A DNA stretch of 62,680 bases, counting the filler, from Rhabdomonas costata (taxonomy: Eukaryota): the NCBI GenBank assembly GCA_019059605.1. It is 43 parts of 43 records of this genome, joined end to end, with 100 filler letters (N's around TTAATTAATTAA, not from the genome) between each part and the next. Parts side by side here need not be neighbours in the genome. Positions count along the whole stretch, not along the records: positions 17,599 to 18,965 come from JAHMHO010018071.1; positions 19,066 to 20,433 come from JAHMHO010018072.1; 41 more parts are not named here. One strand, written 5' to 3'. A program made the translations under genes and the position numbers. Below the pieces are notes generated by a model. The model saw only the letters and a list, made by a program, of their open reading frames with translations, ran no database searches and was not told the DNA's origin. Shown here piece after piece: positions 7,333-48,900 of this stretch (positions are counted from its first letter, which is position 1; every line of letters starts with the position of its first letter).

Positions 7333-8623
7333 CCGGGGGTACGCTGAAAGGCCTCTGCGAAGCGAAACTTCGAAAACAGAGGAAATAGCAGCTCGTCCTC
7401 CTCCCGACATTCCGATAGCTCCTGCAGAGGAGCACCCCTTGAGTTGCTGATCATAAAAACCGTCGCCAGAGCTCCGTGAATGAGCTCATACCTGAGAAGG
7501 GAGCACGCTTGGAGTGCCAACAGGCGTTTCCGCAGCGTATAATTACTTCAGTGCGCATAAGTGCGCAGAGTTGTCAATATCTTCTCTTGATGGGATGTTA
7601 GAAAATCTCATAATGATGGTCCTGCCACCGCAAGGGATTGAATGCCGCTGTCCGGAGAGCGTTCCGCGCCTTACCGGAAGTCAAATGGAAATAGTACAGG
7701 AAATGCTACTTCCAAGGAAGTGTACACCGGTCAGGTTGAGTAAATTGTTTTTGCTGCGCGTTGGGTAAACTGCGTCAACTGCTCATAAATAATTGTACGA
7801 TTCTTGAAATAAAGCGCGATTCTCAATATAAACGCAAAAATGGAGGTCGAACAAAAAATCCAGAAACACACCGCTGCCCAGACAGCCTATGCACCAACCA
7901 ACGCTTCCCGCTGCCGTCGGAGGCAGCGTCGTACGGAACTCCCGGAAGGCTAATTGGCAGACTTCCGTCCCAGCTATCCAAACAGCGAGTGATCTTTTTC
8001 TTGATTTCCACATCCGGCGTTAAGGAGATGACCCAAGGATAGCACTTCTCATGTACGAATACCCACCTCTTTTTCTGTAATTCAGAGTTCCACAAAATGT
8101 TCTCCACCCGAGAAGAAACCTTGAATTCGTAACTTGTCATCACGGCACCCGGGCGAAAGTGTTGATTAAGGTTGTAGTTCTCGAAATCCGGAAATATCCA
8201 GGACACACAGCGTTGGCTGTCAATTCCCTGCTTCTCGAACTCCGTGGGAAGATTCTCCAGTGCCCACATAAGAAGCACAACTGCGGCCATGCATCTGTCC
8301 AGCTGTGGCGTGCTGCTCCGCTGTTCCTTGGCCTCCCTCAAGGCTGAGTTGATCACCACGTTCGGTGCAACAAAAGGCGACTTGGGTCCCTCCCCGCTGG
8401 TCCACCACCGACAAGTGGCCACAGATAAAATGTGGGCCCTGCAGTGGGATGGATATCTTCTGCGGGCATATGCGAGGCATTGCTCGGCCTTCGCTGTTGC
8501 CTGGCAGGTTGCATCGCTGATGTTCTTTGCAGCCTTCATCAGAGGGTCGTGGTGGCACAAGATGGAACGATGCTCTCGGAATAAAGCAATCAGCTTCTTC
8601 TCCCATTCGTGATCTTCGAGCAC
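7333..8623 (-). CDS. Mono-ADP-ribosyltransferase of the R-S-E (ARTC / cholera-toxin-like) class; exons 8067-~8623 and 7333-7491
   Basis: WT...VINSALRE...LMWALENLP...QRCV (R)...FRPGAVMTSYEFKVSS (STS-like), spliced AG|GTGGGT...CAG|G to YELIHGALATVFMISNSRGAPLQELSECREEDELLFPLFSKFRF (E-x-E). This is the motif order of ART domains. Confidence 0.75.
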
Positions 8624-9076
8624 GCCCCGACAGAAGCAATGAGGGGAAGGATCTGATTGCTTTATGCCGAGAGCATCGTTCCATCTTGTACCACCACAAN
8701 NNNNNNNNNNNNNNNNNNNNNNNNNNNNNNNNNNNNNNNNNNNTTAATTAATTAANNNNNNNNNNNNNNNNNNNNNNNNNNNNNNNNNNNNNNNNNNNNC
8801 GTGACGACTACCGCAGAAGCGATGGACAAAAGACTAAATATTTAACTGGCACAGCCTCACAGATCAAGAGAGGGAAGGTGTGTGTGCGTGTGCGCGCGCA
8901 CGCCCAAACATTCAGAGGAAGACGCTTCCATTGCTGCTGCCCTGTCATTGATGAGCCTGGCCTGGAGTGATCGCTACTGTCTATGCGGAACACTGAAACT
9001 GACATCAATTGCTCGTTAGGGGAAGTTAAGCGCCACAAATCAAGGTGCGGGACATCCTCACAAACATAGAGCGTAC

Positions 9077-10165: not shown

Positions 10166-10503
10166 NNNNNNNNNNNNNNNNNNNNNNNNNNNNNNNNNNN
10201 NNNNNNNNNTTAATTAATTAANNNNNNNNNNNNNNNNNNNNNNNNNNNNNNNNNNNNNNNNNNNNTGTGTTGGGTAATCATAACTGAGGTGTCCAAAAAA
10301 AAGGTTCAAAAAAGACGGCTGACACAACAATCACTGCCACTGGTGTCCTTTCGAGACGTGCTCTTTTTCAGCCTCTTTTTCATGCAAAATTTCAGAAGGT
10401 TGCAGCGTGCTTCAGTTCACTGACAACTGACAACTGACAACTACCACAGGGAACCTTTGCCAACAAGCCAACCAACATGCCGAAAAGAAAACCGCCGGCA
10501 TAC

Positions 10504-14254: not shown

Positions 14255-16211
14255 GTGTGGAACTGACTTGCCATATTTGGGAATTGGCTCGTTTTTGTAA
14301 AAGCCGGATCCAAATTTTGTCTAAATGAATACAGGCCTCTATGGGCCCATCGAAGAACATTTCGATTTTCGGATTTTGCTCAGGATATTAGCAGCGTTGG
14401 GGCATCCGTACTTGTGAAGTGTGGCTGCCCTTTCCTTCAATGCTTCCACTTCCCCTTTTGGCGCTGAGCGGGCGCTTATAGCTCTGTCGAGCACCGAACA
14501 GGTGCCCCTCTCCTGGATTCCCTTCTTGTAATCGCCAACGTTTTCTGCCCCTCCCCCCAACCCAACNNNNNNNNNNNNNNNNNNNNNNNNNNNNNNNNNN
14601 NNNNNNNNNNTTAATTAATTAANNNNNNNNNNNNNNNNNNNNNNNNNNNNNNNNNNNNNNNNNNNNGTTTTTTTGGCAGACATTTTGGCCTTCTGTCTTT
14701 CTTCTTCTTTTGGGGTCCTTTTTTTTCGCTCGAACAAAGAGAAAGAAAACAACAAGAGAGGCCAAATGGGAGGGAAGGGACCTGTGAGCGTGCACAGAAA
14801 AGGCTGGATTTCATATGGACTAAGGTGCAATGGAACTGCTTCCAGCCAGAACAAAACCACACTTAAACTGATGATAGGCTTTTTATTTGGGGGGAGGGGC
14901 GACAATAACAATTACATTTGGTAACCCTGATCACATTTGGAACCGAGTGATCTCGCATAATTGCATCACTCTCTGTCACCAAGCCAGACCCATGTCGATC
15001 TGCGAGTTTTAGGGGGGCAGCTACCAAGCCTTTTGTTCATAAGGCGCAATGCTGCAACCCCAGCCACACAGAGAAGGATACTCCTCAGCTGTACAGCGAA
15101 TTCAAACAGAAGTCAATCAGCCCCCGACAGCAGCGAGATATTCTTCACCACCCCCTCCATCGGACCTAAGCAGAACTGCACCCACGGCAAAACAATAAGA
15201 TAGCCCTAGCTTCCCACCACACTGGCTCGCGGTCTGGCTCGGCGGCCAAGCAGCTTCATGGGTTGCGGAGGGTCAACGCAAAAGAACAGTGTCTCCGGAG
15301 AGAGGGCAAGGGTGCCCCTTCCCGCACCATGGAGAGCGCTGTGAAGCGGGGAAGGGGTGACTTCCATCCGGTGGGTGCTGTGTGGAGGCACATCTGGGTC
15401 AGTGCTGGAGTCACAAGCAGATATCTGAGCAGAAAAAGTTGGCAGTCTACTACAACAGATGCAAAGCGGCCAAAGCGGCCAGACAGTTCACAGACGCAGG
15501 CCGCATCCGTTTCTGAATTTCTCCTTCCTTTTCATCTAACCCCGTCACCCACCGTTCCCCTTCCCCCTCCAACCTGCTCCTTACATTTCTCGTGTGCGTT
15601 CCACCAGTAGCGTTTTCCCACGAAAAAAAGTTGTCCGTTCACGTGTTTATTTTCACATTTGTCAACACAGTGCAGTCCCCGTCACCCAAACCAAACGTTG
15701 CCATTCAGTCTGTTTTTGCGCAGAGCATGCCCCGCTCTGCTGTGCTCTAACCTTAACTGCCGCAGTGCCGCGATTTTTCGGGCACCATCAGTACCAAAAC
15801 GAAGAATAGTGGCTGGCGTGAGGGACGGGATTTTATACAATACGCATCAATCCAAATGAAATCGTCCGGGTACTGAGGGTCCACTCGTGGTGGCCTGGGG
15901 GTAATATCAAATCCAAAGAACCGGAGAGGAGCAGGCTAAGGATTCGCAAGACCTGCAAGGAAAGTGGAAGCCATCGCTGGGTCTGGTCGTTGTGCTGCCA
16001 CAGAGGGGAGTCCAGTTCATCCACCACAAACAANNNNNNNNNNNNNNNNNNNNNNNNNNNNNNNNNNNNNNNNNNNNTTAATTAATTAANNNNNNNNNNN
16101 NNNNNNNNNNNNNNNNNNNNNNNNNNNNNNNNNGTGTTGGGTGTGTGTGGGTGTGGTGTGGGCGTGTGGATACTAGTGCCGAGTTCCCCTGCAGATAGAT
16201 AAAAACCAAAC

Positions 16212-16709: not shown

Positions 16710-17859
16710 CTGCAAAGAAAAAACTACCCCCGTCGGCCAATCCCCAAAATTGAATATTGAATAGCCTGCAAAGGCTGCCCAACGCACATACAGTATAACG
16801 AAAAACGGAAACAGCACACCAAGTCGACTATTTTGTTTTTTAAGTGTCGCGTTCCGCCATAGGGGGGATGAGTGGATGTGGACGGAGCCGCTAGTTCAGA
16901 GATTTGTGATTGAAGGGATGTTGCCGCAGAACCTCTCGATTGTGTTTGGGGGTCGGTTGTTGGGTGATGTGCGGTTTACTGCGATGATTTGTGCATTTGC
17001 ACTACGCCTTTGTTTTCAAATATATGGGGGGCACTCTCTCGCAGCCGGTTTTTTGCGGGCTACTTTCAGTCCTTTTCTGTCTCAACGACACTCCTTGTTG
17101 TTTTGCATCAGATGGTGATTTGTGAGCTGCTCTGAGGATGGCTGAAGGATCCTTATGGCTGTCAATGAAAAATGCTTCGTAACTTTTTGGTAACACGAGA
17201 TTTAGCAGTACGCATTGACTTGTAGGGAGGTGCACCTTCGCGCAAGTTCAGTTTTGTAAAAAAGATCGCGCCGTGGTTAAAAAAGTGACTGCTTCGTTAA
17301 TGTTAACGGTTTCCATATTTTTACATGCCTACAGTGCATGATGTTTGAAGGCCGCTCAGCATTCTTTTAGGTGGGCCGAGTCTTCATTGTGTATTTCGTG
17401 ATGCGCTTTTTCTGGAGGATCGAGATCGTGTGTTGTCTTTCGAATTGCGCGTTTGTAGCATCATGGGGTCGCTCGTCAGTAGATACCCCCCCCACCCCNN
17501 NNNNNNNNNNNNNNNNNNNNNNNNNNNNNNNNNNNNNNNNNNTTAATTAATTAANNNNNNNNNNNNNNNNNNNNNNNNNNNNNNNNNNNNNNNNNNNNAG
17601 GGTAAGGGGTAATCGAAGTCTTTTTCGCTCGCTATCTCTTTCTCGGGTGTCGTGGATGGTTGTGTGCCTGCAGTCGAAAGCCCTCCCATAGGACCCGCTG
17701 TTTCCGCCTCCCATCTACCATCTAGAGTGCGACGGAGCCCTCTGAAGTGTGTGATTGCTTTCGAGTTTACACACACGCGAGCGCGCGCAAAGGCAAGAAA
17801 CAACTGGGGACTTGAGAAACCACCATGCGAGGCACGAGCATCAGTGGGGAGCGCAGGAG

Positions 17860-18300
17860 TCACGACCGTAGGGAGTAGAAGGAGTGAATGCCCGTAGCCG
17901 TGTAGCGGTGGAGGGCATGAACCACCATACATAGGGAGTGAGGGAGCGTAGTCTCCCTCACGACCAGCAAAGAACATCTTGGGGGCCCCATGACTCACGA
18001 ACGCAGTGAGGGAGGCATGGGGTGTCAGGACATACATGCATTAAGGATGGAGGCATGGCCGTAGCGCAGCGTAAGAACGAGGAGTGCAGCGACGAGTGAC
18101 AGTATACCCCTCACATTTAGGAGGAACGAGCGCAGCGAGTGACGACATCAAAACATCGTGGGGGCCCCATGACATCGACCGTAGGGAGATGGCATGGGGT
18201 ATCAGCATCTTCTCTTACATCCATTAGGGGCCCCACGAGCCATCAGCGAGTGGGGATAGTAGGAAGGATGGCATCGAGCATAGCGAGATGACATCCTGAC
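17860..18300 (+). repeat. Cluster of nested DNA hairpins capped by the GA-XC-GNA-GX'-GA motif
   Basis: GACCGTAGGGA 17864 and 18177, GAACGCAGTGA 17999, GAGCGCAGCGA 18128, variants GAGTGCAGCGA 18082 and GAGCATAGCGA 18276. Several sit inside longer stems (CCCCATG..CATGGGG, AGGATG-CATC..GATG-CATCCT). Confidence 0.85.
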
Positions 18301-19536
18301 AAGAACATCCATTAGGGATACGTGTCACTTCACTCTCATGATGGTCCCTTCATCCCTCAGGGCCCATCATGTTCGTTCCGTCCTGGCGTAGCCACAGGAA
18401 GAGAATACAGGTAAAGGTGAAGGTCACGGAGGCATGAGTCACGCAGTGGGTCATGCCGAAGTAGAGGTAAAGACACGAAGCGAAGCGGAGTAGAGGATAG
18501 AGACAAAGCTGGTAGGAATGCTAACATCAACCCTCTCACCTCACCACAAAACTCAAGGCCTCGAAACACCAGCATCATTCACTCCCTCACTTCCACACAA
18601 GCACTCAAGAAGCAGTGGTGACAGAAACAGCAGCAAGGACAACAGGAGGGTCAGAATTCCACACGTCAACCCACACGTCAACCAACTCAGAAGGCAGCAA
18701 GGCATCACAAACACACACCGTAACACAAGCACTGGTAGAGAGCATGGTTGAAGCACAAGGACTGGAGACAGAAACGCTGGAGACAGAAACGAAGGAATGC
18801 AGAAAGGCATCGGAGTCAACATACGCATAAACAACACAGGAATTACCAGCACAGGAGCCACCAACGCAAGATCCACGCATCGTCACACCCTCCAACTCAG
18901 CATCCACACTCACCCTCTGACTCAGCTTGACATCGACACCCTTACAACCAACGCTCGAGACACCANNNNNNNNNNNNNNNNNNNNNNNNNNNNNNNNNNN
19001 NNNNNNNNNTTAATTAATTAANNNNNNNNNNNNNNNNNNNNNNNNNNNNNNNNNNNNNNNNNNNNAGACAGTCAGCTCACCTCCCACGCCATGATCGGGT
19101 TCAGCTGTAGGGTTTGAGTGACGTTGCATCACCGGTCACCTTACGCCTTACCTCATCAAGGGGCTGGTGTACGCTATAGCCTAGCATCCATCACTAGGTC
19201 TTTCATCTGACGCCCAGATACGCCAGGTATCTCACTGTGACTCCCCACGCATAGGGTCCACGTAACACGTATTTCCAGGCGAACCTGATGACAACGTAGA
19301 TCGTGCGCCTCAGCTCAACTTCACCATATGCGTCCATTGGTTACTGGCCTCGTGAGCAACGTCCTTGTTGTATTCGTGTGTGAGTAGAGTGTAGTTGGTG
19401 TCTGTGATCGTCTCGGTCGTCTCACAGCTCGGTAGGACCCGGCCTTGCCTGTCGGTCAACATGCCTGTGACTGTGGATCGCCCTCCCTTCCTTAATGTTG
19501 GCCTTCCAACGCTGGAAATCCCGAAGGAAATCCTAG

Positions 19537-19712: not shown

Positions 19713-22700
19713 AACACTAAAAGGGTGCAGGAAAGGTGGACCTAAAAAATCGTTTCCCTGCGGCGCCAGAACTTAAATAACGACACGAAAAATGACGCCA
19801 GGGGTATCCACCTCCACCACCTCGGGATACGGGTGCACCTGGGCCCACCTACCTGCACCCCTGAGACCCCTGACACCTAGGGGGGACCTCGAGAGAGATG
19901 AAGGCTAAGACCAGAAGATGCCCACATGCATGCCACTACCATCCCTACCCCTAAATGCCAACAGAGGGAAATGAGGGGTTTGAGGGTGGCTGGGGACCTC
20001 CATGACCCCAGGATACAAGACCACATAGATGCACCTACCTGCATAGGTCAGTGCGGCCGGAGCAGTGCATTTTTGAAGCAAACACAAATGTGAGCACCCA
20101 ACTCGGCACCCAACTTAGTTTCGTACCTCACTCCTTAACATCTCTAGACTGCTCAACGACGTTTGATGGAGCCTGGACTCAAGATCTGATTGCGGACTAT
20201 TCTGATATCGAAAATCGAAACGGAGTCACGGCAAGCGACCATTATGTTTCCTGTTCCGTCAGATCTTGCGATGATCTTCGGAGAGGACATTCAGCTTCAC
20301 TCGATCGTCTCTGTCAACGGGCTGATCGCTGGGATTCATCGCAACCCAACGAAGGTGCCGAATGTTTGTGCCATCCTTTGTTTTGTTGGTATTACGTGTT
20401 CTTCTATCCGGGATTGCAGGCAGTCTAACAAAANNNNNNNNNNNNNNNNNNNNNNNNNNNNNNNNNNNNNNNNNNNNTTAATTAATTAANNNNNNNNNNN
20501 NNNNNNNNNNNNNNNNNNNNNNNNNNNNNNNNNGTGTTGGGTGTGGTTGGTGGTTGTGGTGGATCGATGTCTTGAGCGGGTGGCGGAGCAGAGGCGTGAT
20601 TATCCTGGTTGGGCAACGAGACGCGCTCAGGAGGTGAAGGAGGAGGTGACACGGAGGAGGATGTGAAGATGGTAATCGGGTTCACCAAAAAGGAAGCGGC
20701 GGCTTTCTTTACAGTGGTCCTTCCCGTTTCTTTCCAACCTGGGTCCCATCTCGACGAGGTCCAGGTGAACAAAATAACCACGCCATTTCAAGATGAACAT
20801 TCGATTGACAAATACTGTAAAGCTAAGAGGAAGCCGAGAAGACGACCAAACAATACAGGCATACGGTGTCGAGTGTCCAGTTCCCCGCGATCTCACGCGC
20901 GGGCTCGGCGGCCTCGTCAGCTTCATCTACCGATTGATCACACTGATCACGCTGGACAAGTTTTGCGTACAGGCCGCACGCGTTGGTGTATAACTCGGAA
21001 CATTCTGCAACAGATCGAGGAAGATAACCATCACCAGACATCAAAAATACAAACCATTTGGTAAAAGTACAGCAATTCACGATCCATGCGGTAGCCTTGG
21101 ATTGCGTTCATTTCGGGTGGGTAGTCCGGGTAACGCGGGTCTCCGGTGTCCCAGGAGGGTAACTTGCTCCGATACTACCTCCATGGTGAACTGGAATGAA
21201 GAACGATCGGCATTTATTTGAATAGAGATCTATCATGCTTTCTTGCGCACATGTGCCATGACTGCACCATGAATACTTTCCGCATCGTCGGTTTTTGTTA
21301 AGGTCGAACAAAGCGATTCCAGCCTGAAGTCCTCATACCGGAGTCCCATTGGTCCCGGATGTCGTGCGCCAGGAAGAGGTCAGCGGGGTCAGCGGGTTCC
21401 TGTCGAGCCCTTTGCATCGCCTCCGGCGTGAGAAGCCCAACCCTCTCCATCCATTGGTTGCAGCTGACGAGAACACGACAGAGTTGCCGAGCATCGCTTC
21501 CGGCAAGGGCACATTGAAGCTGTTCCTTGAGCCGATGAGCTTGCACAGCTGCCGCCCAAACCCAAAAGGAAAACGCAGACCAAAACGCTTTGAAGCCAGA
21601 CTCACTGCTGTCGCGGGGTTCAGCTGGAGATGCAGGAGTTGCACATGTCGGGAGTCAGGCCAATGTAACGGTCCCCTTTTCATGCCTGATCACAAGCGTT
21701 TAAAAGTGTTTACAAACGAAGTTGGGGCTCCAAAATCACCAAGTCGGCAAAGCAGGAAGCCTACACAGCTCAAAAGCCACAAAAAACCTAAAACAACCTG
21801 CAAAACTGTTCCCAAATATTTATCCATTGTTGCAAGGATCTTTGACCGTCACCTTGTGGCAATGGTTCTGGCTGCACAGTTCTTACGTTAACCAACAACC
21901 NNNNNNNNNNNNNNNNNNNNNNNNNNNNNNNNNNNNNNNNNNNNTTAATTAATTAANNNNNNNNNNNNNNNNNNNNNNNNNNNNNNNNNNNNNNNNNNNN
22001 TTAGCTTCTACCCACCACCTCCACCACCACCACCACCGTAATTCGTGGCGCCCCCAACCCACTCCCTCGAACGGCCTCCCTTTCCGCTCCACACGTACCG
22101 CACGCTGTCAGTACCTCCGGGGGTTTGCGGGGAAGGGTACAGCTGCCCGCCCCCCGAGTGGAGGGCCCCTGCAGAGTGGCGATTCAGGGGACTATGGACC
22201 GATGCTCCGCGCTGGGGAGCCAGGGCGTGCTTGTGACTATGTCTGGAGAGGCGAGGCCAGAGTTGAGCTTTGTGGAGACCCAAAGCAGCGATCGGAAGGA
22301 GAGGGCTGTGGTTTGGTGGTGGGTTGGGGAAACCTCAATTATTTTTCTGGGCGCTTTTACCCTTTTGGAGCTTGTGTAACGGGCGCTCCGGAAGTGGCAG
22401 GCTATAAAATTTGCCGAGTGGAATGTTTTAGGGCCAACCCCTGTGCCAGGAGTCCGCTGAATTGCATTGCAATTGCAATGAAACAGGAATCACAGGAACC
22501 ACAGGAATCGCAGTTCTTGTAAAAACAAACGGTGTGTAAGACAGCCCTCTGAAAGGGTTGTCATAAAGAGGGGTCCTTCTTTGGAATGGTTATTTAGCAG
22601 GACACCTAAAACGGTCTTTGGGAGCTATTGACTTTGTGCACCGGAATGACCGTGGTAAAGCACATGCAGAGTTCCCCTCCCCACACACCTTATAACACAC

Positions 22701-24952
22701 TTCAACCGTACGTCAAGCCAGCACCTAGCATCAAGAGCCGCTCTACATCCCTCCGCTGCCCGAGACGTACACGAAAGAATACTTCACTTTCTTACCGTTT
22801 CGGACCCGTTTTTTGGAACCAAAAGTTGCGAAAAAGTTTGTGAAAGAGCTGCGCTCACCAGTAAATTTTGTGTGTTTGCGTCTGGGTGGTGGGCCTTCAT
22901 ACCCAACACCGCACCACGGGCCCCCTCCCAAAGCAGAGGCACCCAAGCCCTGGCCTTCCCCAAGGCCGCCCTCGCCGCGCCAGACGCCCCGCTTCGGGTG
23001 AAGTTCCGGCTTCCCCTTTTTGTGGACGGAGATGCGCTCTGGTTCACTGAGGGACCTGAGATCCCGCTTCCTATTCCCCGAGGGCCCTCATACCGAGTCG
23101 GCGCCCGGTCTGGTGAAATTGAGGTGAGGGCCCCAGAGTGCCCTGGGGTGTATTCCCTTGTGTACGCCACCCCATTTAGGAATGGCGCGGTGCGAGTGGG
23201 GGTGACTCGAGTGGAGGTGTTTGTGTCTGCAATGGCCATGTCACGCGAGACGAGCGTGACGGAGGCTCTGCCACTGGCCCCGCGATCCTTTCCTGCAGTG
23301 GTGGAGCAGCCCTGTCCTTCGGATCAATGCTCATCTGCCTCCTCAGGTGGAGCCCCCTCCCCCCCCNNNNNNNNNNNNNNNNNNNNNNNNNNNNNNNNNN
23401 NNNNNNNNNNTTAATTAATTAANNNNNNNNNNNNNNNNNNNNNNNNNNNNNNNNNNNNNNNNNNNNTTGGGGGTGTTGAGCACGCAAATTTATGGTGGAA
23501 GTTGGTGGTGGTGGGGGGTGCGACGGTTACCAGTGGTAACAATTTTAACTAGGGGAGAATATTTTAAAATGTTGTTAATGGCCCCCCCACCAGGTCCCGT
23601 CCCTACCCCAGCCGTCCGCTCCGACCACGGCGCGAACTGGCCTTCGCCCATAAACTAATAAATGAACCAGTACACAGTTCAATGGAGCTGACACGTGCAA
23701 CGACGGCAAAAATGAATCAAAAACGTTAAATTGCCCCAATTGCGGCGGACTTTCAGGTGTTGATCCCCAAATCTCAGATGAGGCCCGGTACGGCACTTCC
23801 AAGCAAGCTAAGTGCACTCAACCACAACATTGACCGGAAAAGATCTGGTATCACCTCTCCAGCCTCGGATTCAAGAACACACACAAAGATCACGAAACCA
23901 GGAAAGGTTGGTGGCTGCCGCTCGCCAACGCCGGAGGCCGATCAGGAGGTTTTTGCGTAAATTTCATCATCAGATGAAAAATCAGCAAGCACACAATTGG
24001 AGATTTACATGACATAAAATCACAAAGGTAAAAATCCAATGGCGCGTACACATACGGGCTGTTCAGTAGTTCGCAGAAGGGCGGCGCTAGAAAGATCGAT
24101 TTAAATCATCAGGCCAAAGGCGAGTTTTCCGTAACAAACGCACTGCGAGTGAAAGCAGGAGACATATTATCTGAAAAGAGCTCGGGTGTAGCCTGGGTAT
24201 GCGTTGTTCAGGACGAACCCGACAACAGGAAAACACGGCTTAGGAAAGCAGGTGGCGACAAGGCAAAGCCGAAATCAAAGGTAAAGTACAAGCGACCAAA
24301 AAGTACACCTACAAGTCGACGAAATTTTTCCAGCGTGGAGCGAGGAGCGCCCAGTTGGAGAGCATTAGAGACCGAAGCTCCGGTGGAAAGGAAAAACATC
24401 TGCCTGCGGGAAAGAAGGCTGAATGAAACCCGTATGGACTACATAAACGGAGGAAGTGATTGCGGCAATGCCTCCATCCCCCCTATACAGCCTCAGCTTA
24501 GTCGCAGATGGTGCGGCACGCCGGTGGGTTGCACACATTGGATAAAGTCAGCACGCAGACTGTGCAGGTGGTGAAGACGTTTATTCTGTTGTTCCTCCGT
24601 GTGGGATGGGTGGAAGTTACGGCTCACTTGGACAACAAGACGCAGGTTGCTTCCAGCACGGTCCTCAAGGACGAAAGCATTCTCCGCCAGGTATTGAAGA
24701 TGCGCTGTGCCTTTTGCATGCATAGAGGGCAAGCGTGAGGTCTAAGTATTGGCTTGCGCCATTAAAGAATTAGTATAATGATTCCAGAAGTGAGGGAAAA
24801 TACCTCGACATGTTTTTGTTGAACCACAAACNNNNNNNNNNNNNNNNNNNNNNNNNNNNNNNNNNNNNNNNNNNNTTAATTAATTAANNNNNNNNNNNNN
24901 NNNNNNNNNNNNNNNNNNNNNNNNNNNNNNNTTTGTTTGTGACCAGCATGTG

Positions 24953-25718
24953 GGAAAGCACTTCTCCCCGGAGCTGCGGGACTTGCTTTCCCACATGCTG
25001 GTCGCAAACCCTAACCGCCGCTACACTCTGGAGGACATCGTGCGTCACCCTTGGTACTGCCCTTTGGGCCTTTTTGAGTGGCCACCCGGTTCCTCGTCCT
25101 TTCTTTATGGCCGCCATTGCTTATTTCTCCTACGCTGTACAACGTACAGCGCGACAGTCGCGACCAACCCCGGATGCCTTTTTATCGTTTTTTTCTGGAC
25201 CGGTTGAGGCTTGGGGCGTCGCCGTTTTGTTTGAAGCCCTGCAAGAGTTTTCTTGCGAGCGAAAGAGGAGAGAAAGATGTGAAAGCACAAGCGCACTCCT
25301 CGATTTTACCGCATGGAACCAATAAGAAGTCCAGCCAGTGTGCTTGTGGTGCAGCTCTGGAATGCATCCCTGAAAGACATCCGTACTGTGGGGGGCTCTC
25401 TTGTTCATCCTCTCCCTCTGTGAAACCTTTTTTCAAACGCCCTCCTCGGGCGCCCACGCCCCTGTATCTTTGTTGTCCTCTGAGCACTGCCGAAGGATGG
25501 AACCATCCTTAAATCTCCGTCACTGTTGCACCTGTTTAAGGGCATTTTGGGTCCTCTCTCTCTCTTTGAGGCGCAAATAAATCCGACACGGTGTCCATTC
25601 CATCTTCGCCAGGATGCAGCCCATGCCGGAGGCGGAGCTGGAGTATGTGCGGCAGTTCAACCCGGACATGGCAACCGCGGCGGAAATGGATGAGGCCATT
25701 GAGCCCGTGGCCGAGGAG
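24953..25718 (+). CDS. Ser/Thr kinase (CAMK/AMPK-like), subdomain XI plus following exon; exons ~24953-25053 and 25613-25718
   Basis: FSPELRDLLSHMLVANPNRRYTLEDIVRHPW (L..ML..NP..R....I..HPW); the Trp codon is split TG|GT...AG|G in phase. Confidence 0.85.
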
Positions 25719-28509: not shown

Positions 28510-29387
28510 AACTCGCTGGATTTACTGTTTGTTAATGTCAGCGGGTTTAAAAATATCATTTGATGTTTTGGAGAACTGCAGTGATCAGTAACAATAGTAT
28601 GGTGTCGCCGCCTTTTCATCAGTCGTTTTTTCGTTTCTTGACCTTTCGTTTCTTTTTTTTTTTTGATATTTTCTCTGCCTTTTTTTTATTGATTAGCCAC
28701 CTTTCCGTGCTTTGAGACTCTGATTTCGAACAACACTCGATGCCCTCATCAATTTTGCTGGGGGACAGCTGTTCTTGCTATGGTTCTTTGTCGCTAGGAC
28801 GGAGGTCCTTGCACTTTGGTTCTCACTGCATACCATATGCTATGGTTGAAGTTTAAGTATCTGTGCACCTCCGGAAAATTGTGCTCAGGGACGAGGGACG
28901 CTTGAACATGTCTGAGACTCAAAGGGGTTTTCTTGGATCAATAGGACGCATAACCGCAAAAGGATTGACCTCTACGGATGTGAAGTGTGTCACAACATTC
29001 TTTGTAGCACCGATGAACAATTCTTCCAGTGTCGATGCCACGGCGACCTTGTGGGCGAACGTACGCTAAAACGTTGTTGTTAAACCCCTGCCATCTTGTG
29101 TCGTTTACCAGCTTCTTCGGCGATCTCTATCTATTTTTTCCTCATCCTCGGGAGGTATTCCATTTTTTCAATGACATCCGCCCACGCCGCTGGCCGGGGA
29201 CCGGAGGTTCCGGCCGTCTCCCACAAACANNNNNNNNNNNNNNNNNNNNNNNNNNNNNNNNNNNNNNNNNNNNTTAATTAATTAANNNNNNNNNNNNNNN
29301 NNNNNNNNNNNNNNNNNNNNNNNNNNNNNTGTGGGTTGTGGGGTGTTGGGCACCTGATGTTGGGGGAAATCCAGAACACCTTGTCCA

Positions 29388-30399: not shown

Positions 30400-30804
30400 G
30401 TGCGTATATGTGTGGTAGAGGGGTGCGTGAACGTATGTTTGGTTTTTATGAGTCATTCATAGCGGTCCAACCGCATTCTCCCAGAACACGGCAACCGCAC
30501 GGGCACTATCAGCCACAAAAATTCAGGCCCAGGGCAATCCCAAAATACCAAGACGCTTGTCTCGCAAGGCAGTTCGGGCACTCACCTAACCCAATTTTCC
30601 AACAAACAATTGCGCATAGCGGTTGCCGTGTTCTGGGAGAATGCGGTTGGACCGCTATGAATGACTCATAAAAACCAAACATACGTTCACCACCCNNNNN
30701 NNNNNNNNNNNNNNNNNNNNNNNNNNNNNNNNNNNNNNNTTAATTAATTAANNNNNNNNNNNNNNNNNNNNNNNNNNNNNNNNNNNNNNNNNNNNAGTTT
30801 GTGT

Positions 30805-36560: not shown

Positions 36561-37373
36561 NNNNNNNNNNNNNNNNNNNNNNNNNNNNNNNNNNNNNNNN
36601 NNNNTTAATTAATTAANNNNNNNNNNNNNNNNNNNNNNNNNNNNNNNNNNNNNNNNNNNNCTCTGTATAGGTAGTGGTGTAGCAACCACGTCAACCCTAT
36701 GCGTAGTGGTGGTGATGTTGTGGTGGATCGAGCCCTGTGTGATGTTGTGTGTCATCGCCTTGTCATTCTGTCTGCTGTGTATCCCGCAGTGTAAGTCCTG
36801 AGTGATGGTGTTGGCATCAGGTCATGGCAGCTTGGCATCCCTGCATCAACCCATGGGTCTGTTACCATGGTTCTAGTGCAGTGTGTGTGTCAAGTGCTGG
36901 TTCTGTGCTGATGTTGACGTGGATGGCAACGGAGGATGATGTCAGCATCCCGTGATCGGGGCCATGCATCGAGTGGTGGAGTTGAAGGCGCTCCAACCAA
37001 GTGATGTGTGGTTACGCCAATGCTGAGGGTGAACGTTACCCTTAGCAACGTAGCAACCATCGCTACAAGGCCACACCTTACCACATCAACCCCAAGGGTA
37101 GGAGTTCTGCGTGGCTTTGCCCGGACGGAGTGAGTGAAAGCACCTTAGGGTGGTGGAACGAACGAAGTGACACGTATAGCTAATGGTGGTGTGAGCAAAA
37201 CCGTGCAGCGGTGGAGGGAGCCGTCATGGTTAGAAGTGTTGTGTTAGTGATGGGTTGAGAGAGCGTACCGCATTATGGCGGGGAGCGAACGATGAGAGAA
37301 GGGTTGATGGTCGCTGCGTCACTCCATCCGCGATGCTCCGGTCGTTCCTTGCTCCTTCTTCTGTCGGTCACAA

Positions 37374-37912
37374 TCGCTACGCTCATGTTCCCTCCTGTCA
37401 TAGTCGTCACACTCGTCGCTACGCTCCTCCTGTTCCTCCGGTTCACAATCGACTCTCACTTCGTTCGTGTCTCATGTTCACAACGGTTGTTTCATGGTCG
37501 TCACACTCGGCATTCACGTAGTTCATGCCTCCTGTTCTTCCTTGGTCGACATTCAACTCTCACTGCGTTCGTGTTTCATGTCTCCTACGTTTACCCATGG
37601 TCGTTACAATCGCTCGTTACACTCGCTCATGTTCCTCCGACGTCGACATTCATTCTCACTCCCTCCGGTCGTTCGTATTCATGTCTCCTCTGCATTCAGT
37701 CGTCGTCACTCCGTTCCTCCTCCGGTTCACAATCGACTCTCACTTCGTTCGTGTCTCATGTTCACAGCCATGGTAATACGGTTCACACTCGACATTCACT
37801 GCGTTCATGTCTCCTGTTCACTGGTCGGTCGTCGCGATGCTCCTCCCTCCTGTATACGTGTCGGCATTCACTGCGTTCATGCCTCCAATCCCCACTCATT
37901 CTCGCTACGCTC
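37374..37912 (-). repeat. Degenerate tandem array with ten GA-XC-GNA-GX'-GA mini-hairpins
   Basis: Plus-strand complements TCGCTACGCTC (37374, 37416, 37902), TCACTTCGTTC (37456, 37740), TCACTGCGTTC (37560, 37796, 37868), TCCCTCCGGTC (37660), TCACTCCGTTC (37706). A block of about 45 bp (CCTCCGGTTCACAATCGACTCTCACTTCGTTCGTGTCTCATGTTCACA) is duplicated. Confidence 0.9.
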
Positions 37913-38127
37913 GTATTGTAGCTGGAGTCCTTGCGGAGGGTGGTACCGCCAGGTGCTGAACACGGAACTATCAACCGGTCTACCAAGCATCCAGCTACAC
38001 CCCGACGGGAAAATTTACCCACCCCCCNNNNNNNNNNNNNNNNNNNNNNNNNNNNNNNNNNNNNNNNNNNNTTAATTAATTAANNNNNNNNNNNNNNNNN
38101 NNNNNNNNNNNNNNNNNNNNNNNNNNN

Positions 38128-45900: not shown

Positions 45901-48900
45901 CACCAACGCCACTACTACTGCACGTAGGTACCTTAGCTGTGGTTCTACCGTATACGTACGGTTCTACCTTCTAAGCTAAGTCATGCACTCAGGTTCAATT
46001 AGGATTGTTGTACGATCTTTTAACGATTCGTCTCTTTTAACGTTACGTCAGTTTAATCTAAAATTATCATAAATTTAGACAACTACCTGGGGTTTCGGGA
46101 TCGGAGCCCTACTCTTTGCATCTCTTCCACATGAGGTACGAAGGAACCATCATGAGAGTAGGTAGACGAATGTGCATAAGCGCCTTCTGGCGGTGGAGCA
46201 CATGAACCACCGCATTTAAGGAGCATGTGAGCACTTGCAAACATGCGACCAGCAATAACCAAAGGGCTCCAAAATACGCATCGGGGTATCGCATTCATGT
46301 AATGTACCCCTTGATGCCATTACGCTGAGTTGGAAAGAGATGGAATTTGATGGAAACCTTACATTAGCGTCTTTGTCTCACATTAGGCGTATTCTCGTGA
46401 CATGCACATTTGATGGAGGCTGGTGCTTCCCACTCGAATTTCCATCGGCAAGAAGGATGTGTTGAGTCACGAGGCCAATGCGTAGTAGGTTAGGCATTCC
46501 CTCACACCCCCTACACACCCCTTGATGGCATCGGGTATCGGGGTGACATAGGTGGCACAGAATGTNNNNNNNNNNNNNNNNNNNNNNNNNNNNNNNNNNN
46601 NNNNNNNNNTTAATTAATTAANNNNNNNNNNNNNNNNNNNNNNNNNNNNNNNNNNNNNNNNNNNNATGTGCTGCGTTTTTTACAAATGTGGTTGTGGGTC
46701 TAAATGCAACAGCTAATGGCGGATCATCATATGCAAATATTTCACACGCAAGGGCTTGAAATTCGAGTCAACAAGTGGGAGTCCAGAGTGTGCCTGAACG
46801 TTCGCATGAGTTGCTAAGTTGTAAAGGAAACTTTCCTTGTGGCGTATAGATTGAAGAAGAAAATGTCCACGATTCCATGCACAATGCGAAAAAAATGCGT
46901 ACCATATGTATTGAGGAATTGGTTTGGTAGGAGCGGAGTATTTAGATAATATGGGTTTTCAAGAAGCTTCGCGATTTGTAGAGACCCTATCTTCATGAAG
47001 TGTTTTTGAAAGAGCTAATGGAATTTCTGGGCAAAGTCAAAAATGTTGTCACGGTACGATTCCCGAACAAATTATCAGGAAGAAATAACGAATCGGACAA
47101 TAATGTGAACAACGTTTAGGAAGTTGATCGAAGTTGCGGTACGCGCACCAATGTTCAATGTAGATGAATGTTGTTGTGCTGATTTAGATCGCGTCTTACA
47201 ATTGCCCCAATCACAAACACGGAGGTTTAAAGCTCTTTGACATCAAGAGAAATTGAAAGATAAATGAATATGGGACAACTAATGAGATTCACGGTAGAGC
47301 TCCTCGTGCGCCAAAAAGTAATTTTTGAGGTCGGCCAAGGTAGCAGCACGCGCGTTTAAGGGCCGCGTCGGATGCGTGGTTGGGACCAGGAAGGTGTGGT
47401 AAGGTAGAAGCAAGTCGGGCTAAAGAGTTCCTTTTTCGAGTTTAACGTAATTGATTTATCTTCTATCAAAAACCATTCTCGAACTTGTTTTCTTAATATT
47501 CTATATAGTGTGCTTATATGGGTCCGAACGCACCGGTTGCACCCAAGATCAAAGTTTAGGCGTTGTTGCCGTTTTTTTTCCTTGGCTTCCTTATGCGTGG
47601 GATGGCGTTAGCAGAACCAAACCACCCGGAGTGGAACCCGCAAAAATTGAGCGTTCGAAATCGACGGTTTGCCAGGGTTCAGGGCAGGACGCCGCAGCGG
47701 AGGCACAAGGATAAAAGGGCCCAATCTAAGAGAGGGGTGGCTTCTAGGAGGGTTGCGCGGGCAGACGAGGAAACAGCCGCACGGAGGCGCATGGTAGGGC
47801 AGAAGAGGGGGTGCCTGGCGGGGGCAAAATAGAAAGGGGGGCCGCAGGTCTCGCGCCAAGGCGCGGGCAGCAAGAAAACGCCAAAGCCCACCACAGCAAC
47901 GCACGGGGAGAACACACACAGAAGCCGGAAAAACGAAGCCCAGGAAAACAGGCACGCCAGGATGGTGCAACAGCTTTTACAAGGGGGGCGCCCGCCCGAA
48001 AACAATGTGCAAGGGGGCAAAAACAAAACANNNNNNNNNNNNNNNNNNNNNNNNNNNNNNNNNNNNNNNNNNNNTTAATTAATTAANNNNNNNNNNNNNN
48101 NNNNNNNNNNNNNNNNNNNNNNNNNNNNNNGGGTGTTGTGAAGGAGCGAGGGCAATGAGAGTGCGGTCCCGTGTTGGTCGCTTTTGTCAGAATGCGAGTG
48201 AGTCCTCCTCGGTTCTAGACCCAGCCCCCCCCTCCCCTGCTACCACTTCTCTGGCTGTAAACAATTCTCTGGATGTAAATTATCCTCCTCCCTGTGGGTC
48301 GCAAGACCGCGCCCCACTAATTTGTGTCACAATTTCCTCGTGCAAACTTTTCAGTGCTGTGTTGTCTTTCCTTCTCGACCTTTCCAGCTCACTCACGAGT
48401 GAGGCTGTGAAGTTTTCTTTTCCTCGGACTTCTTCTGCCTTTTCGTGCGTCTCAATCTGAGTCTAAAGCATTCTCCTTGCACGTTGTGTTGCCCCAGCTC
48501 GGCCTTGATGGGGTTTGATCGGATTTGACATCTCTTCGTTCCCTCGCTCAAATCAAAAAAGGGAACGCCTTCAGAACCCGAAACCGAAGAATGTAGATTT
48601 GTCAGAGTTCTGTTCCCAGTCTACCTCCTCTCCTCGAAGCTTCTCTCTCTCTCTCTCTCTCACGTTCAAACAAGTTTGGGTCCAAATCGGCCACCTTTTC
48701 CTCTTCTTCACCAAGTTCAGTCCACCACCACGCCGTGCCCCGTTTTTTCAGTGGTTTTCATACGTTCTTTTTGGAAGACGGTGTCTGTGCGAATTCTCAT
48801 TACTTTTCCCAGTGCTTCTGCGGGGTCGGCATCATCACTCTGCCGCCCCTACCTGGCAGTGCAGCAGTTCGGGTGAGCAGTTTCCGAGGGCGAGGGAGGC

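What the first reader, a model, noticed from the sequence alone, without database searches (positions are those of the whole stretch)
17860..18495. The same mini-hairpin caps long nested stems on an independent contig
Seen: about six plus-strand copies, here at the tips of longer inverted repeats: CCCCATG-A-CATC-[GACCGTAGGGA]-GATG-G-CATGGGG (18165-18199), AGGATG-G-CATC-[GAGCATAGCGA]-GATG-A-CATCCT (18265-18297) and CCCCAC-[GAGC-CATCA-GCGA]-GTGGGG (18231-18255). A related stem is GTGAGGGAG-CGTAGT-CTCCCTCAC (17938-17961). Finding the motif on a second contig with different flanks argues for a family of structured elements. Inference: it resembles the small mobile palindromic/double-hairpin elements of fungal and algal organelle genomes, or a replication control region.
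Basis: partly seen in the sequence, partly recalled or inferred. Interest (0 to 1): 0.72.

Follow-up and report, generated by a model that had tools for sequence, protein, structure and literature searches.

The report
Strand-specific mini-hairpin array in repeated DNA
Two short contigs from an amplified, unidentified eukaryote carry diverged copies of one gene-less repeat in which a run of small hairpins, each tipped by the same unusually stable three-base-loop fold flanked by G-A mismatches, forms on the purine-rich strand only.

Summary
All four hairpins lie at the stated coordinates. The contig-A hairpins fold far better than shuffles, with z from -2.5 to -5.9.

The shared cap has a precise grammar: 5'-GA, a 2-bp stem, a 3-nt loop (GNA in 15 of 20 units), the 2-bp stem, GA-3'. 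That is a DNA-type mini-hairpin bracketed by a tandem sheared G·A step.

In this 43-contig window the cap occurs only on contig 17599-18965 (+) and contig 36661-38027 (-). It always sits on the purine-rich strand. Its inner and outer stems co-vary.

The two contigs are not independent contexts. They share a 23-nt box (21 identical), a second conserved small hairpin and tail similarity. They are therefore diverged copies of one multi-part, non-coding, apparently multi-copy element.

I found no match in Rfam, phage, plasmid, viral, metagenome or prokaryote collections. No ORF on either contig matched a Pfam family, and GC is like the neighbouring nuclear-looking contigs. The organelle mobile-hairpin reading is therefore not supported.

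Best reading (about 0.45): a nuclear repeat whose purine strand folds back as single-stranded DNA, working like centromeric G·A fold-back satellites.

Two limits apply. The contig-B array is not stable under standard energy rules. The rest of the assembly could not be searched.

The parts
17858..18297 (+). Contig A hairpin array on the purine-rich strand. GA-bracketed caps lie at 17864-17874, 17999-18009, 18128-18138, 18177-18187 and 18276-18286. A 5-nt-loop variant lies at 18231-18255 and a weak unit at 18076-18098. Other hairpins lie at 17889-17919 and 17938-17961.
18165..18199 (+). Best nested hairpin: CCCCATG/A/CATC, then the cap GA-CC-GTA-GG-GA, then GATG/G/CATGGGG.
   Evidence: -12 kcal/mol, z -5.85, 0 of 200 shuffles as good
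18309..18331 (+). Conserved box CCATTAGnnATACGTGTCACTTC, shared with contig B (21 of 23 identical).
   Evidence: local alignment score 36 against shuffles 15.9 +/- 2.3, maximum 24
18332..18371 (+). Segment present in A but absent at this place in B. 18337-18371 forms a hairpin. Its first 28 nt (18332-18359) are 89% identical to 46132-46159 (-) on a third contig.
18371..18395 (+). Conserved GTTCGTTCC followed by CCGTCCnGGC-nnA-GCCAC, a small GGC/GCC hairpin. Its loop is GTA here and AAA in B.
   Evidence: read from the alignment
18431..18457 (+). Further hairpin GGCATGAgTCAC-GCA-GTGgGTCATGCC with a C-GCA-G triloop and no GA bracket.
   Evidence: z -4.67, 0 of 200 shuffles as good
18520..18965 (+). 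T-poor, C/A-rich tail with short local repeats. It is weakly but significantly similar to the tail of B.
   Evidence: score 32 against shuffles 20.6 +/- 2.2, maximum 27
37368..37918 (-). Contig B array: 15 GA-bracketed mini-hairpin units on the purine-rich strand, in a degenerate repeat of about 104 nt.
37111..37186 (-). Contig B copy of the conserved box (37164-37186), GTTCGTTCC (37155-37163) and CCGTCCgGGCaaAGCCAC (37111-37128).
46132..46159 (-). 28-nt module on a third contig (45200-46565, GC 0.433), shared with 18332-18359.

Best explanation
What it is. Contigs 17599-18965 (+) and 36661-38027 (-) are two strongly diverged copies of one gene-less, probably high-copy genomic repeat of an unidentified eukaryote whose DNA was whole-genome amplified. 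The element has three parts:
1. A purine-rich array of hairpins, 450-550 nt long.
2. A conserved core: the box CCATTAGnnATACGTGTCACTTC, then GTTCGTTCC, then a small GGC-NNA-GCC hairpin.
3. A C/A-rich tail.

How each array unit is built. Each unit is a stem-loop whose tip follows a fixed grammar: outer Watson-Crick stem, 5'-GA, a 2-bp stem, a triloop (mostly GNA closed by C-G), the 2-bp stem, GA-3', outer stem. The two GA steps face each other as a tandem sheared G·A pair. The tip is a Hirao-type DNA mini-hairpin.

Why it is strand-specific. The complementary strand would carry C/T mismatches and TNC loops. The fold is therefore specific to the purine strand.

Inferred mechanism. When the duplex is opened by replication, transcription or cruciform extrusion, the purine strand snaps into a row of compact, nuclease- and SSB-resistant fold-backs. 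These are kept by selection, as the purine strands of centromeric G·A satellites are thought to be. Local duplication and slippage at these folds expand and reshuffle the array.

Shown and inferred. Shown: the motif grammar, its strand specificity, its covariation, and the homology of the two contigs. Inferred: a nuclear location, a high copy number, folding as DNA and not RNA, and any cellular role.
For: Motif grammar and specificity:
- The 11-mer occurs 4 times on A(+) and 10 times on B(-), against 0 on both strands of the other 41 contigs.
- GA-N7-GA sites with both inner pairs complementary: 5 of 14 on A(+) and 15 of 30 on B(-), against 37 of 531 elsewhere.
- Only the 5'GA/3'AG tandem occurs (5 and 4 hairpins). 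AG, AA and GG tandems occur 0 times. The shuffle mean is 0.035.

Covariation:
- The inner pair next to the GA step is G-C 9, A-T 8, C-G 3. The loop-closing pair is C-G 17, T-A 3.
- The outer stems were not used for picking units. The structure pairs 73.7% of cells against 49.8 +/- 3.3% in 500 shuffles (0 reach it), and 19.5-41.2% when the partner is slid.
- The first outer pair is paired in 16 of 19 rows, with three pair types.

DNA-type signature:
- 15 of 20 loops are GNA.
- 11 of 20 units have pyrimidine-GA-purine on both strands.
- The review PMC13037366 (passages) reports that only GNA triloops give mini-hairpins, with Tm 70-76 C for GCGNAGC. It also says the RNA versions are less stable and standard thermodynamic parameters miss the effect.

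One element, two copies:
- Box score 36 against 15.9 +/- 2.3. Tail score 32 against 20.6 +/- 2.2.
- A-B is the top pair of 903 contig pairs for shared 11-mers, 13 against a mean of 1.33.

Non-coding and nuclear-like:
- No Pfam family matched any of the 8 A/B ORFs tested.
- GA spacing shows no 3-nt periodicity.
- No Rfam family or tRNA was found.
- GC is 0.537 and 0.535, like the neighbouring contigs.

Known analogue: the HSat3 purine strand forms hairpins and duplexes held by sheared G·A pairs, with a GGA loop (PMC11014236, passages).
Against: - Under standard nearest-neighbour DNA energies the contig-B array is not more stable than shuffles. Its z is +1.90 and 20 of 20 shuffles fold at least as well.
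- Single B hairpins give z of -1.02, -0.38, -2.40 and +0.05. For B the fold therefore rests on non-canonical chemistry that the tools cannot score.
- On contig A both strands and the RNA fold equally well by Watson-Crick rules, with z of -3.40, -3.94 and -3.99. The computation does not choose strand or molecule.
- Many B units are related by local duplication, so the unit counts are not independent events.
- The inner two pairs of alignment A2 were complementary by selection.
- Copy number is inferred from 2 of 43 contigs only.
- No genome, reads or relatives were available.
- Location (nuclear, centromeric or otherwise) is unknown.
Confidence: 0.45

Rival explanations
1. The array is transcribed. 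The hairpins act in a non-coding RNA read from the purine-rich strand, as protein-binding or processing signals, and the conserved box is part of its promoter or its body.
For: - The fold is one-stranded and directional relative to the conserved box in both copies.
- Tandem sheared G·A pairs are also common in RNA (recalled).
- The RNA fold of 17860-18495 has z = -3.99, with 0 of 20 shuffles as good.
Against: - No Rfam family matched, even at E up to 5.
- Loops are triloops of the GNA type (15 of 20). They are not the GNRA or UNCG tetraloops typical of RNA.
- The review states that the RNA counterparts are less stable than the DNA mini-hairpin.
- Only 1 G·U cell was seen among 133 stem cells.
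- No expression data could be obtained.
Confidence: 0.25
2. The hairpins are many separate insertions of tiny mobile palindromic elements of the MITE, REP or RHE kind. They would move as folded single-stranded DNA through an HUH or Y1-type enzyme, and pile up in a permissive spacer.
For: - A 28-nt piece of the hairpin segment 18332-18371 recurs on a third, otherwise unrelated contig and is absent from the same place in contig B.
- Units with identical tips sit in different stems.
- GA-bracketed GNA caps also occur in unrelated viral and metagenome contigs L007, L010 and L011.
- Earlier notes of this scan describe come-and-go hairpin elements with the same junction in giant viruses. These are unchecked leads.
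Against: - Mobile hairpin elements keep their whole sequence, stems included, between copies (PMC2800124 passages). Here only the 11-13-nt tip is kept.
- No copy was found outside the two homologous arrays in the other 41 contigs. The best hit there is 12.4 bits, E 0.64.
- No target-site duplications or empty sites were seen.
- No transposase could be looked for, because the assembly is not held.
Confidence: 0.12
3. The contigs come from an organelle or another small high-copy replicon, and the array is its replication or transcription control region.
For: - Mini-hairpins of this type mark single-strand initiation sites and hairpin promoters in phages G4, St-1, alpha3, ssiA and N4 (review passages).
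- Two of 43 contigs carrying the family suggests a high copy number.
- The element has a sharply conserved core next to the array.
Against: - No organelle gene, rRNA or tRNA lies on either contig.
- GC equals that of the gene-bearing contigs.
- The two copies are far too diverged for copies of one homogeneous replicon.
- Reading with table 4 opens frames only where composition predicts it.
Confidence: 0.1
4. The pattern is chance in purine-rich low-complexity DNA, or an artefact of whole-genome amplification such as fold-back chimeras.
For: - The contigs are amplicon-bounded. 28 of 43 start with at least 9 of 10 G/T and 34 of 43 end with at least 9 of 10 A/C, against 2.6% of internal 10-mers. 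This matches the primer quoted in PMC10781638.
- Six other contigs have palindromic ends.
- GA is over-represented in B, with 109 GA in 620 nt.
Against: - Composition-preserving shuffles give a mean of 0.035 such hairpins against 5 and 4 observed.
- The AG, AA and GG control tandems give 0.
- Fold-back copying would give Watson-Crick pairs. It would not give conserved G·A/A·G mismatches or three to four co-varying inner pair types.
- The same grammar occurs on two separate amplicons that also share a non-palindromic box.
Confidence: 0.03

Closest known systems
DNA mini-hairpins d(GCGNAGC) / C-GNA-G triloops (Hirao and colleagues; review PMC13037366, passages read)
   Same: - A two-base-pair stem closed by C-G around a GNA loop with a sheared G·A pair.
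- Exact GCGNAGC occurs in 4 of the 20 aligned units, and three more times on contig A outside the bracket.
- The fold is one-stranded.
   Different: - Here the mini-hairpin is always bracketed by a further tandem G·A step and extended by variable Watson-Crick stems.
- It is repeated 5-15 times in an array.
- It sits in a eukaryotic repeat, not at a phage origin or promoter.
- A-T and C-G replace the outer G-C in 11 of 20 units.
Purine-strand fold-back satellites: human satellite III (ATGGA/TGGAA)n (PMC11014236, passages read) and the Drosophila dodeca-satellite (recalled, not read)
   Same: - A non-coding repeat whose purine-rich strand alone forms hairpins or duplexes.
- Watson-Crick pairs alternate with sheared G·A pairs.
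- The loops are of the GNA (GGA) kind.
   Different: - There is no short-period tandem unit. Contig A has none and contig B has about 104 nt at 78%.
- The element has unique conserved parts (box, tail).
- Chromosomal position is unknown.
- No guanine-zipper (GGA)n tracts define it.
Repetitive hairpin-forming and double-hairpin elements and GC clusters of mitochondrial genomes (PMC2800124, passages read)
   Same: Small repeated hairpins, sometimes in tandem as double or multiple hairpins, with no known function.
   Different: - Those elements conserve the stems and vary the loops.
- They are scattered through organelle spacers and genes, and differ in GC from their surroundings.
- Here the tip is conserved and the stems vary.
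- Copies are confined to one element type, and nothing indicates an organelle.
GA-bracketed GNA hairpins in uncultured phage or viral contigs (L010 and L011 from IMG/VR; L007 from a metagenome)
   Same: The same 11-mer grammar with an outer Watson-Crick stem. An example is CCAC-GA-AC-GAA-GT-GA-GTGG in L010.
   Different: - These contigs have 32% GC and no sequence similarity beyond the cap.
- The units there lie on both strands of a large inverted repeat.
- This looks like convergent use of one stable fold, not homology.

Membership tests
DNA mini-hairpin (C-GNA-G / GCGNAGC) | Three-base loop of the form G-N-A | tested here: met
   15 of 20 aligned units: GTA 6, GCA 5, GAA 2, GGA 2. The other 5 are GTG 2, ATA, ATC and TAC.
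DNA mini-hairpin (C-GNA-G / GCGNAGC) | Loop closed by a C-G pair, with a second G-C pair outside it | tested here: inconclusive
   The closing pair is C-G in 17 of 20 units. The second pair is G-C in 9, A-T in 8 and C-G in 3. Exact GCGNAGC occurs in 4 of 20.
DNA mini-hairpin (C-GNA-G / GCGNAGC) | Extraordinary thermal and nuclease stability as DNA | not testable with these tools
   Nearest-neighbour energies treat the cap as an open 11-nt loop. The review says such parameters cannot account for the stability.
Organelle mobile hairpin elements (RHE / DHE / GC clusters) | Located in an organelle genome | tested here: not met
   No organelle gene, rRNA or tRNA lies on the contigs. GC is 0.537 and 0.535, like the contigs carrying eukaryotic gene fragments. 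The test is limited to 1.37 kb per contig.
Organelle mobile hairpin elements (RHE / DHE / GC clusters) | The whole element, stems included, is conserved between dispersed copies | tested here: not met
   Only GA..GA and the loop type are conserved. Invariant columns are G7, A8, G16 and A17, and mean column identity is 65%. Stems differ and co-vary.
Organelle mobile hairpin elements (RHE / DHE / GC clusters) | Solo insertions in unrelated contexts, with presence/absence between relatives | tested here: inconclusive
   No cap copies occur in the other 41 contigs. One 28-nt hairpin-segment module is shared with a third contig and absent from B. No relatives are available.
Purine-strand fold-back satellite (HSat3 type) | Long tandem array of a short unit | tested here: not met
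   TRF finds no period over the array on A. On B it finds about 104 nt, 1.8 copies, 78%.
Purine-strand fold-back satellite (HSat3 type) | The purine-rich strand pairs with itself through Watson-Crick segments alternating with sheared G·A | tested here: met
   Pairing strings such as ss|||||ss||| were read around the caps. The tandem step is GA-specific. This is a sequence pattern only, with no physical test.
Purine-strand fold-back satellite (HSat3 type) | Centromeric or pericentromeric location | not testable with these tools
   No assembly is held.
Any Rfam 15 RNA family | Score at or above the gathering threshold | tested here: not met
   There are 0 matches in the window. On the two contigs the best matches are 13.8-18.4 bits against thresholds of 40-60.

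The most novel reading that the evidence does not exclude
A eukaryotic genome carries a high-copy element whose working part is a row of strand-specific single-stranded-DNA mini-hairpins, each a GNA triloop bracketed by tandem sheared G·A. The same fold code is used by phage origins and promoters and by hairpin repeats of giant viruses. In this reading the array acts as a sequence-independent structural signal, for example a centromere or replication-initiation determinant, or the recognition substrate of an ssDNA-handling enzyme (HUH type). The conserved 23-nt box next to it would be the protein entry site.
Probability: 0.15. Interest if true: 0.7.

Novelty: new variant of a known kind. Interest (0 to 1): 0.42.

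Why it matters
Non-B DNA folds are often proposed as the real signal in satellite and centromeric DNA. In the known cases, however, the fold is a by-product of a simple short repeat.

Here the primary sequence of the stems has drifted while a precise non-Watson-Crick tip (GA / 2 bp / GNA / 2 bp / GA) and stem complementarity are kept. This holds on one strand only, in two diverged copies. That is the pattern expected if the fold itself is under constraint.

If it holds across many genomic copies, it would be a natural test set for selection on single-stranded DNA structure in a eukaryote. It would also link to the same fold grammar seen in phages and giant viruses.

As it stands, this is a well-supported structural motif in an unplaced repeat of an unidentified organism.

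Tried and rejected
Genome and reads:
- The window's own genome is not held.
- No assembly-wide census or expression test was therefore possible.

Public searches for the element:
- Box pattern in metagenome contigs: 0 loci.
- Shortened box pattern in viral contigs: 0 loci.
- Box pattern in prokaryote genome contigs: 0 loci.
- blastn of the array against phages, and of the whole contig against plasmids: no match.
- Literature search for five motif strings: 5 papers, each holding only one of the strings, read from the listing as unrelated.
- Earlier findings of this scan by place and by sequence: nothing.

Hairpin pattern GRCATGAACGCAGTGAATGYC in metagenomes (9 loci):
- Seven fall into two groups of mutually similar sequence with a single copy each. 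I read these as coincidences inside genes. This is inferred from context, not tested.
- Only L004 and L007 look like hairpins.
- None resembles the element otherwise.

Coding:
- No Pfam family matched the 8 ORFs of contigs A and B among the 179 ORFs scanned.
- The long minus-strand frames are what a purine-rich opposite strand gives.
- Table 4 adds nothing.
- There is no 3-nt periodicity.

Counting perfect Watson-Crick hairpins of at least 6 bp does not single out the two contigs. A has 4 against a shuffle mean of 1.9, and B has 1 against 2.4. The signal appears only when tandem G·A is allowed.

Organism identity:
- The aldo/keto reductase fragment has best hits of only 45-61% identity, to a mix of fungi, bacteria and unnamed metagenome proteins.
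- Identity is left open. It is a eukaryote by the FYVE, thiolase and aldo/keto reductase fragments.

The 31% GC contig (49594-50952) was checked as a possible mitochondrial yardstick and gave no recognisable gene.

I considered and dropped three readings of the core from the sequence alone: Pol III A/B boxes, a retroelement primer-binding site, and a CENP-B-like box. The order and the matches do not fit. These are recalled consensus sequences and no tool test was run.
Full report
**What the window is**

The 62,680 bases are 43 separate short contigs joined by N-TTAATTAATTAA-N spacers. Forty-two are 1359-1368 nt long and one is 1112 nt.

Most contigs begin with G/T-only bases and end with A/C-only bases:
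- 28 of 43 have at least 9 of the first 10 bases as G/T.
- 34 of 43 have at least 9 of the last 10 bases as A/C.
- Only 2.6% of internal 10-mers reach this level.

Several contigs start with GTGTTGGGTGTG.... That is the tail of the whole-genome-amplification primer 5'-TGTGTTGGGTGTGTTTGGKKKKKKKKKKNN-3', quoted in the methods of PMC10781638 (passage read). I first recalled this primer from memory.

The contigs are therefore amplicon-bounded pieces of an amplified sample.

Pfam scans covered 29 and then 150 stop-to-stop ORFs. They gave only a few eukaryote-type fragments above the curated cut-offs: Aldo_ket_red, Thiolase_N and FYVE. Weaker matches were F-box-like, UCH and tRNA-synt_2. Most of these matches cover only a short stretch of the family profile.

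I read this as genomic DNA of a gene-poor eukaryote. Its identity stays open. The aldo/keto reductase fragment has best hits of only 45-61% identity, to a mix of fungi, bacteria and unnamed sequences.

**The observation**

The finding lies on contig A (17599-18965). All four hairpins are at the stated coordinates and read as written.

| Sequence folded | Molecule | z-score | Shuffles folding as well |
|---|---|---|---|
| 17860-18495, + strand | DNA | -3.40 | 0 of 20 |
| 17860-18495, + strand | RNA | -3.99 | 0 of 20 |
| 17860-18495, - strand | DNA | -3.94 | 0 of 20 |
| 18165-18199 | DNA | -5.85 | 0 of 200 |
| 17938-17961 | DNA | -4.94 | 0 of 200 |
| 18431-18457 | DNA | -4.67 | 0 of 200 |
| 18337-18371 | DNA | -3.73 | 0 of 200 |
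| 18265-18297 | DNA | -3.68 | 2 of 200 |
| 17986-18022 | DNA | -3.33 | 1 of 200 |
| 18231-18255 | DNA | -2.99 | 3 of 200 |
| 17889-17919 | DNA | -2.46 | 5 of 200 |

**The grammar of the cap**

Lining up the tips shows more than a shared mini-hairpin. The unit reads as follows:
- an outer stem;
- 5'-GA;
- two bases;
- a three-base loop;
- the two complementary bases;
- GA-3';
- the outer stem.

The evidence for this grammar:
- The strict form GA-NC-GNA-GN'-GA occurs 4 times on A(+), 0 on A(-), 10 on B(-) and 1 on B(+). Contig B is 36661-38027. The form occurs on neither strand of the other 41 contigs.
- Without asking for any pairing, GA-N2-N3-N2-GA sites have both inner pairs complementary in 5 of 14 on A(+) and 15 of 30 on B(-). 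Elsewhere the figure is 37 of 531, close to the 1 in 16 expected.
- Hairpins with at least 6 Watson-Crick pairs and at least one facing pair of 5'-GA-3' steps number 5 on A(+) and 4 on B(-). In the other 41 contigs there is 1 each on two contigs. The mean over 200 shuffles that keep local composition is 0.035, with a maximum of 2.
- With AG, AA or GG as the facing step, the two contigs have none.
- Among 20 aligned units (5 from A, 15 from B), the loop is GNA in 15. The closing pair is C-G in 17. The next pair is G-C in 9, A-T in 8 and C-G in 3. Eleven units have pyrimidine-GA-purine on both sides. I recall that context as the one favouring tandem sheared G·A in DNA.
- Further tandem GA steps recur deeper in several stems (pairing strings).

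**Covariation**

The inner two pairs of that alignment were complementary by my selection and prove nothing on their own. The five outer pairs were not selected.

- Over all seven pairs, 73.7% of cells pair, against 49.8 +/- 3.3% in 500 shuffles (0 reach it). The figure is 19.5-41.2% when the partner is slid by 1-3 columns.
- The first outer pair is formed in 16 of 19 distinct rows, with three pair types.
- By direct reading, the long hairpins of contig A differ by matched changes. CCCCATG/CATGGGG in two of them becomes AGGATG/CATCCT in the third. A single purine-purine mismatch sits at the same depth in all three: A·G, A·G and G·A.

A covariance model built from the 20 units was run over the whole window without filters.
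- It found 19 hits with E < 0.1, all on A(+) (6) or B(-) (13).
- These were 18 of the 20 training units plus one new unit at 18076-18098.
- The best hit anywhere else scored 12.4 bits at E 0.64.

**The two contigs are not independent contexts**

Read on its minus strand, contig B has the same order of parts as contig A:
- a purine-rich array;
- the box CCATTAGnnATACGTGTCACTTC at 18309-18331 and 37164-37186, with 21 of 23 identical;
- GTTCGTTCC;
- CCGTCCnGGC-nnA-GCCAC, a small GGC/GCC hairpin whose loop is GTA in A and AAA in B;
- a C/A-rich tail.

| Segment compared | Local alignment score | Shuffles (200) | Maximum shuffle |
|---|---|---|---|
| Box region | 36 | 15.9 +/- 2.3 | 24 |
| Tails | 32 | 20.6 +/- 2.2 | 27 |
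| 5' parts | 21 | 15.9 +/- 2.5 | 32 |

The box and tail similarities are significant and the 5' similarity is not.

A-B is the highest of 903 contig pairs in shared 11-mers, with 13 against a mean of 1.33.

Contig A has an extra segment between the box and GTTCGTTCC, at 18332-18371. It contains a hairpin at 18337-18371. Its first 28 nt recur at 89% identity on a third contig, at 46132-46159 (-), and are absent from that place in B.

The two contigs are therefore diverged copies of one multi-part element. Two related copies among 43 otherwise unrelated contigs suggests a high copy number. That is an inference from a very small sample.

**What it is not**

- No Rfam family matches at the gathering threshold in the window. 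On the two contigs at E up to 5, the best scores are 13.8-18.4 bits against thresholds of 40-60.
- No tRNA was found.
- No Pfam family matched the 8 ORFs of the two contigs. The open frames lie on the pyrimidine-rich strand, where stop codons are rare by composition, and look low-complexity.
- Table 4 changes nothing of substance.
- GA spacing shows peaks at 7 and 9 nt and no 3-nt phase.
- Public searches for the element found nothing.

**A result against my reading**

The contig-B array is not more stable than shuffles under standard DNA energies. Its z is +1.90, and 20 of 20 shuffles fold at least as well. Its single hairpins score z of -1.02, -0.38, -2.40 and +0.05.

The program treats the 11-nt cap as an open loop. 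The review of mini-hairpin DNA says that current thermodynamic parameters cannot account for their stability. It gives Tm of 70-76 C for GCGNAGC, states that only GNA loops work, and says the RNA versions are less stable (PMC13037366, passages).

For B, the fold therefore rests on pattern statistics and known chemistry, not on computed energy.

On A, Watson-Crick energetics do not distinguish the two strands, or DNA from RNA. The strand specificity comes from where the G·A steps and GNA loops lie.

Many B units are also related by local duplication, with a period of about 104 nt at 78%. They are not independent events.

**Mechanism**

I commit to the following reading, at about 0.45. The element is a non-coding, multi-copy genomic repeat. 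When its purine-rich strand is unpaired, it folds into a row of compact hairpins. Watson-Crick segments are spliced by tandem sheared G·A steps and capped by DNA-type GNA mini-hairpins. Stem sequence has drifted while pairing and the non-canonical tip were kept. This points to constraint on the fold itself.

The nearest working analogue is the purine strand of centromeric satellites such as human satellite III. That strand forms hairpins and self-duplexes held by sheared G·A pairs with a GGA loop (PMC11014236, passages).

The element is not a member of that class. It lacks a short tandem unit and has unique conserved parts.

The same cap grammar also turned up in unrelated AT-rich viral and metagenome contigs:
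- L010 and L011 each have three strong model hits, only one of them by design of the search.
- L007 has a 16-bp perfect stem capped by the identical 11-mer.
- Earlier notes of this scan describe similar caps in giant viruses and phages. These are unchecked leads.

I read all of this as convergent use of one very stable fold.

**Rivals**

| Rival reading | Confidence |
|---|---|
| The fold acts in an RNA transcribed from the purine strand | 0.25 |
| The hairpins are piled-up tiny mobile palindromes | 0.12 |
| The element is the control region of an organelle or small replicon | 0.10 |
| Chance or amplification artefact | 0.03 |

Those elements conserve stems and vary loops, and they are dispersed in organelle DNA (PMC2800124, passages). 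Here the reverse holds, and nothing indicates an organelle.

**Verdict**

This is a real and sharply defined structural motif family.

It is a new variant of a known kind, namely non-B, G·A-stabilised fold-back DNA and mini-hairpins. It sits in an unplaced repeat of an unidentified eukaryote.

The decisive census, placement, expression and melting tests could not be run here.

Noticed in passing
all contig ends, e.g. 16134-16170, 20534-20560, 10266-10280: Contigs begin G/T-only and end A/C-only (28 and 34 of 43). Several start with the end of the whole-genome-amplification primer quoted in PMC10781638. The first and last ~10-30 bases of each contig are likely primer-derived and not genomic. 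Each contig is probably one amplicon.
   Followed up: partly
4399-4592; 8549-8697; 24935-25009; 29336-29493 and 30421-30695; 45201-45392; 49596-49650: Six contigs have imperfect palindromes (75-89% identity, 55-275 nt) exactly at a contig end, and one has them at both ends. They could be fold-back amplification chimeras or natural fold-back DNA favoured by single-primer amplification. The imperfect identity is unexplained.
   Followed up: no
45200-46565: This third contig (GC 0.433, no ORF of 100 aa or more) shares a 28-nt module with the hairpin segment of contig A. It ends in an AT-rich palindrome of about 190 nt. It may belong to a wider mosaic repeat family.
   Followed up: partly
61316-61415 and 61653-61752; 32265-32304 and 32596-32635: A 100-nt direct repeat at 98% identity lies 337 nt apart on contig 61315-62680. 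A 40-nt inverted repeat at 97.5% lies on contig 32263-33628. Both start at the contig end.
   Followed up: no
L007 1-100: A metagenome contig of 32% GC has a perfect 16-bp stem capped by the identical 11-mer GA-AC-GCA-GT-GA. It is followed by a second cap (GA-AC-GAA-GT-GA) whose flanks resemble a contig-B unit.
   Followed up: partly
L010 950-1500 and L011 (mirror image): Two IMG/VR contigs (94 and 71 kb, 32% GC) carry a large inverted repeat built of many small hairpins with GAA, AAA or TTT triloops. It includes GA-bracketed caps on both strands. There is no match among deposited phages.
   Followed up: partly
49594-50952: This contig has 31% GC, far below the rest. It carries a 191-aa (297 aa under table 4) lysine- and glutamate-rich frame without a Pfam match. 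It is possibly from another organism in the sample.
   Followed up: partly
17982-17993, 18161-18172, 18227-18238: GGGGCCCC(A/C) palindromes precede three of the contig-A hairpins, so the left arm can pair either way. Three copies of ACATCCATTAGGG-like words (18034, 18217, 18305) punctuate the array.
   Followed up: no
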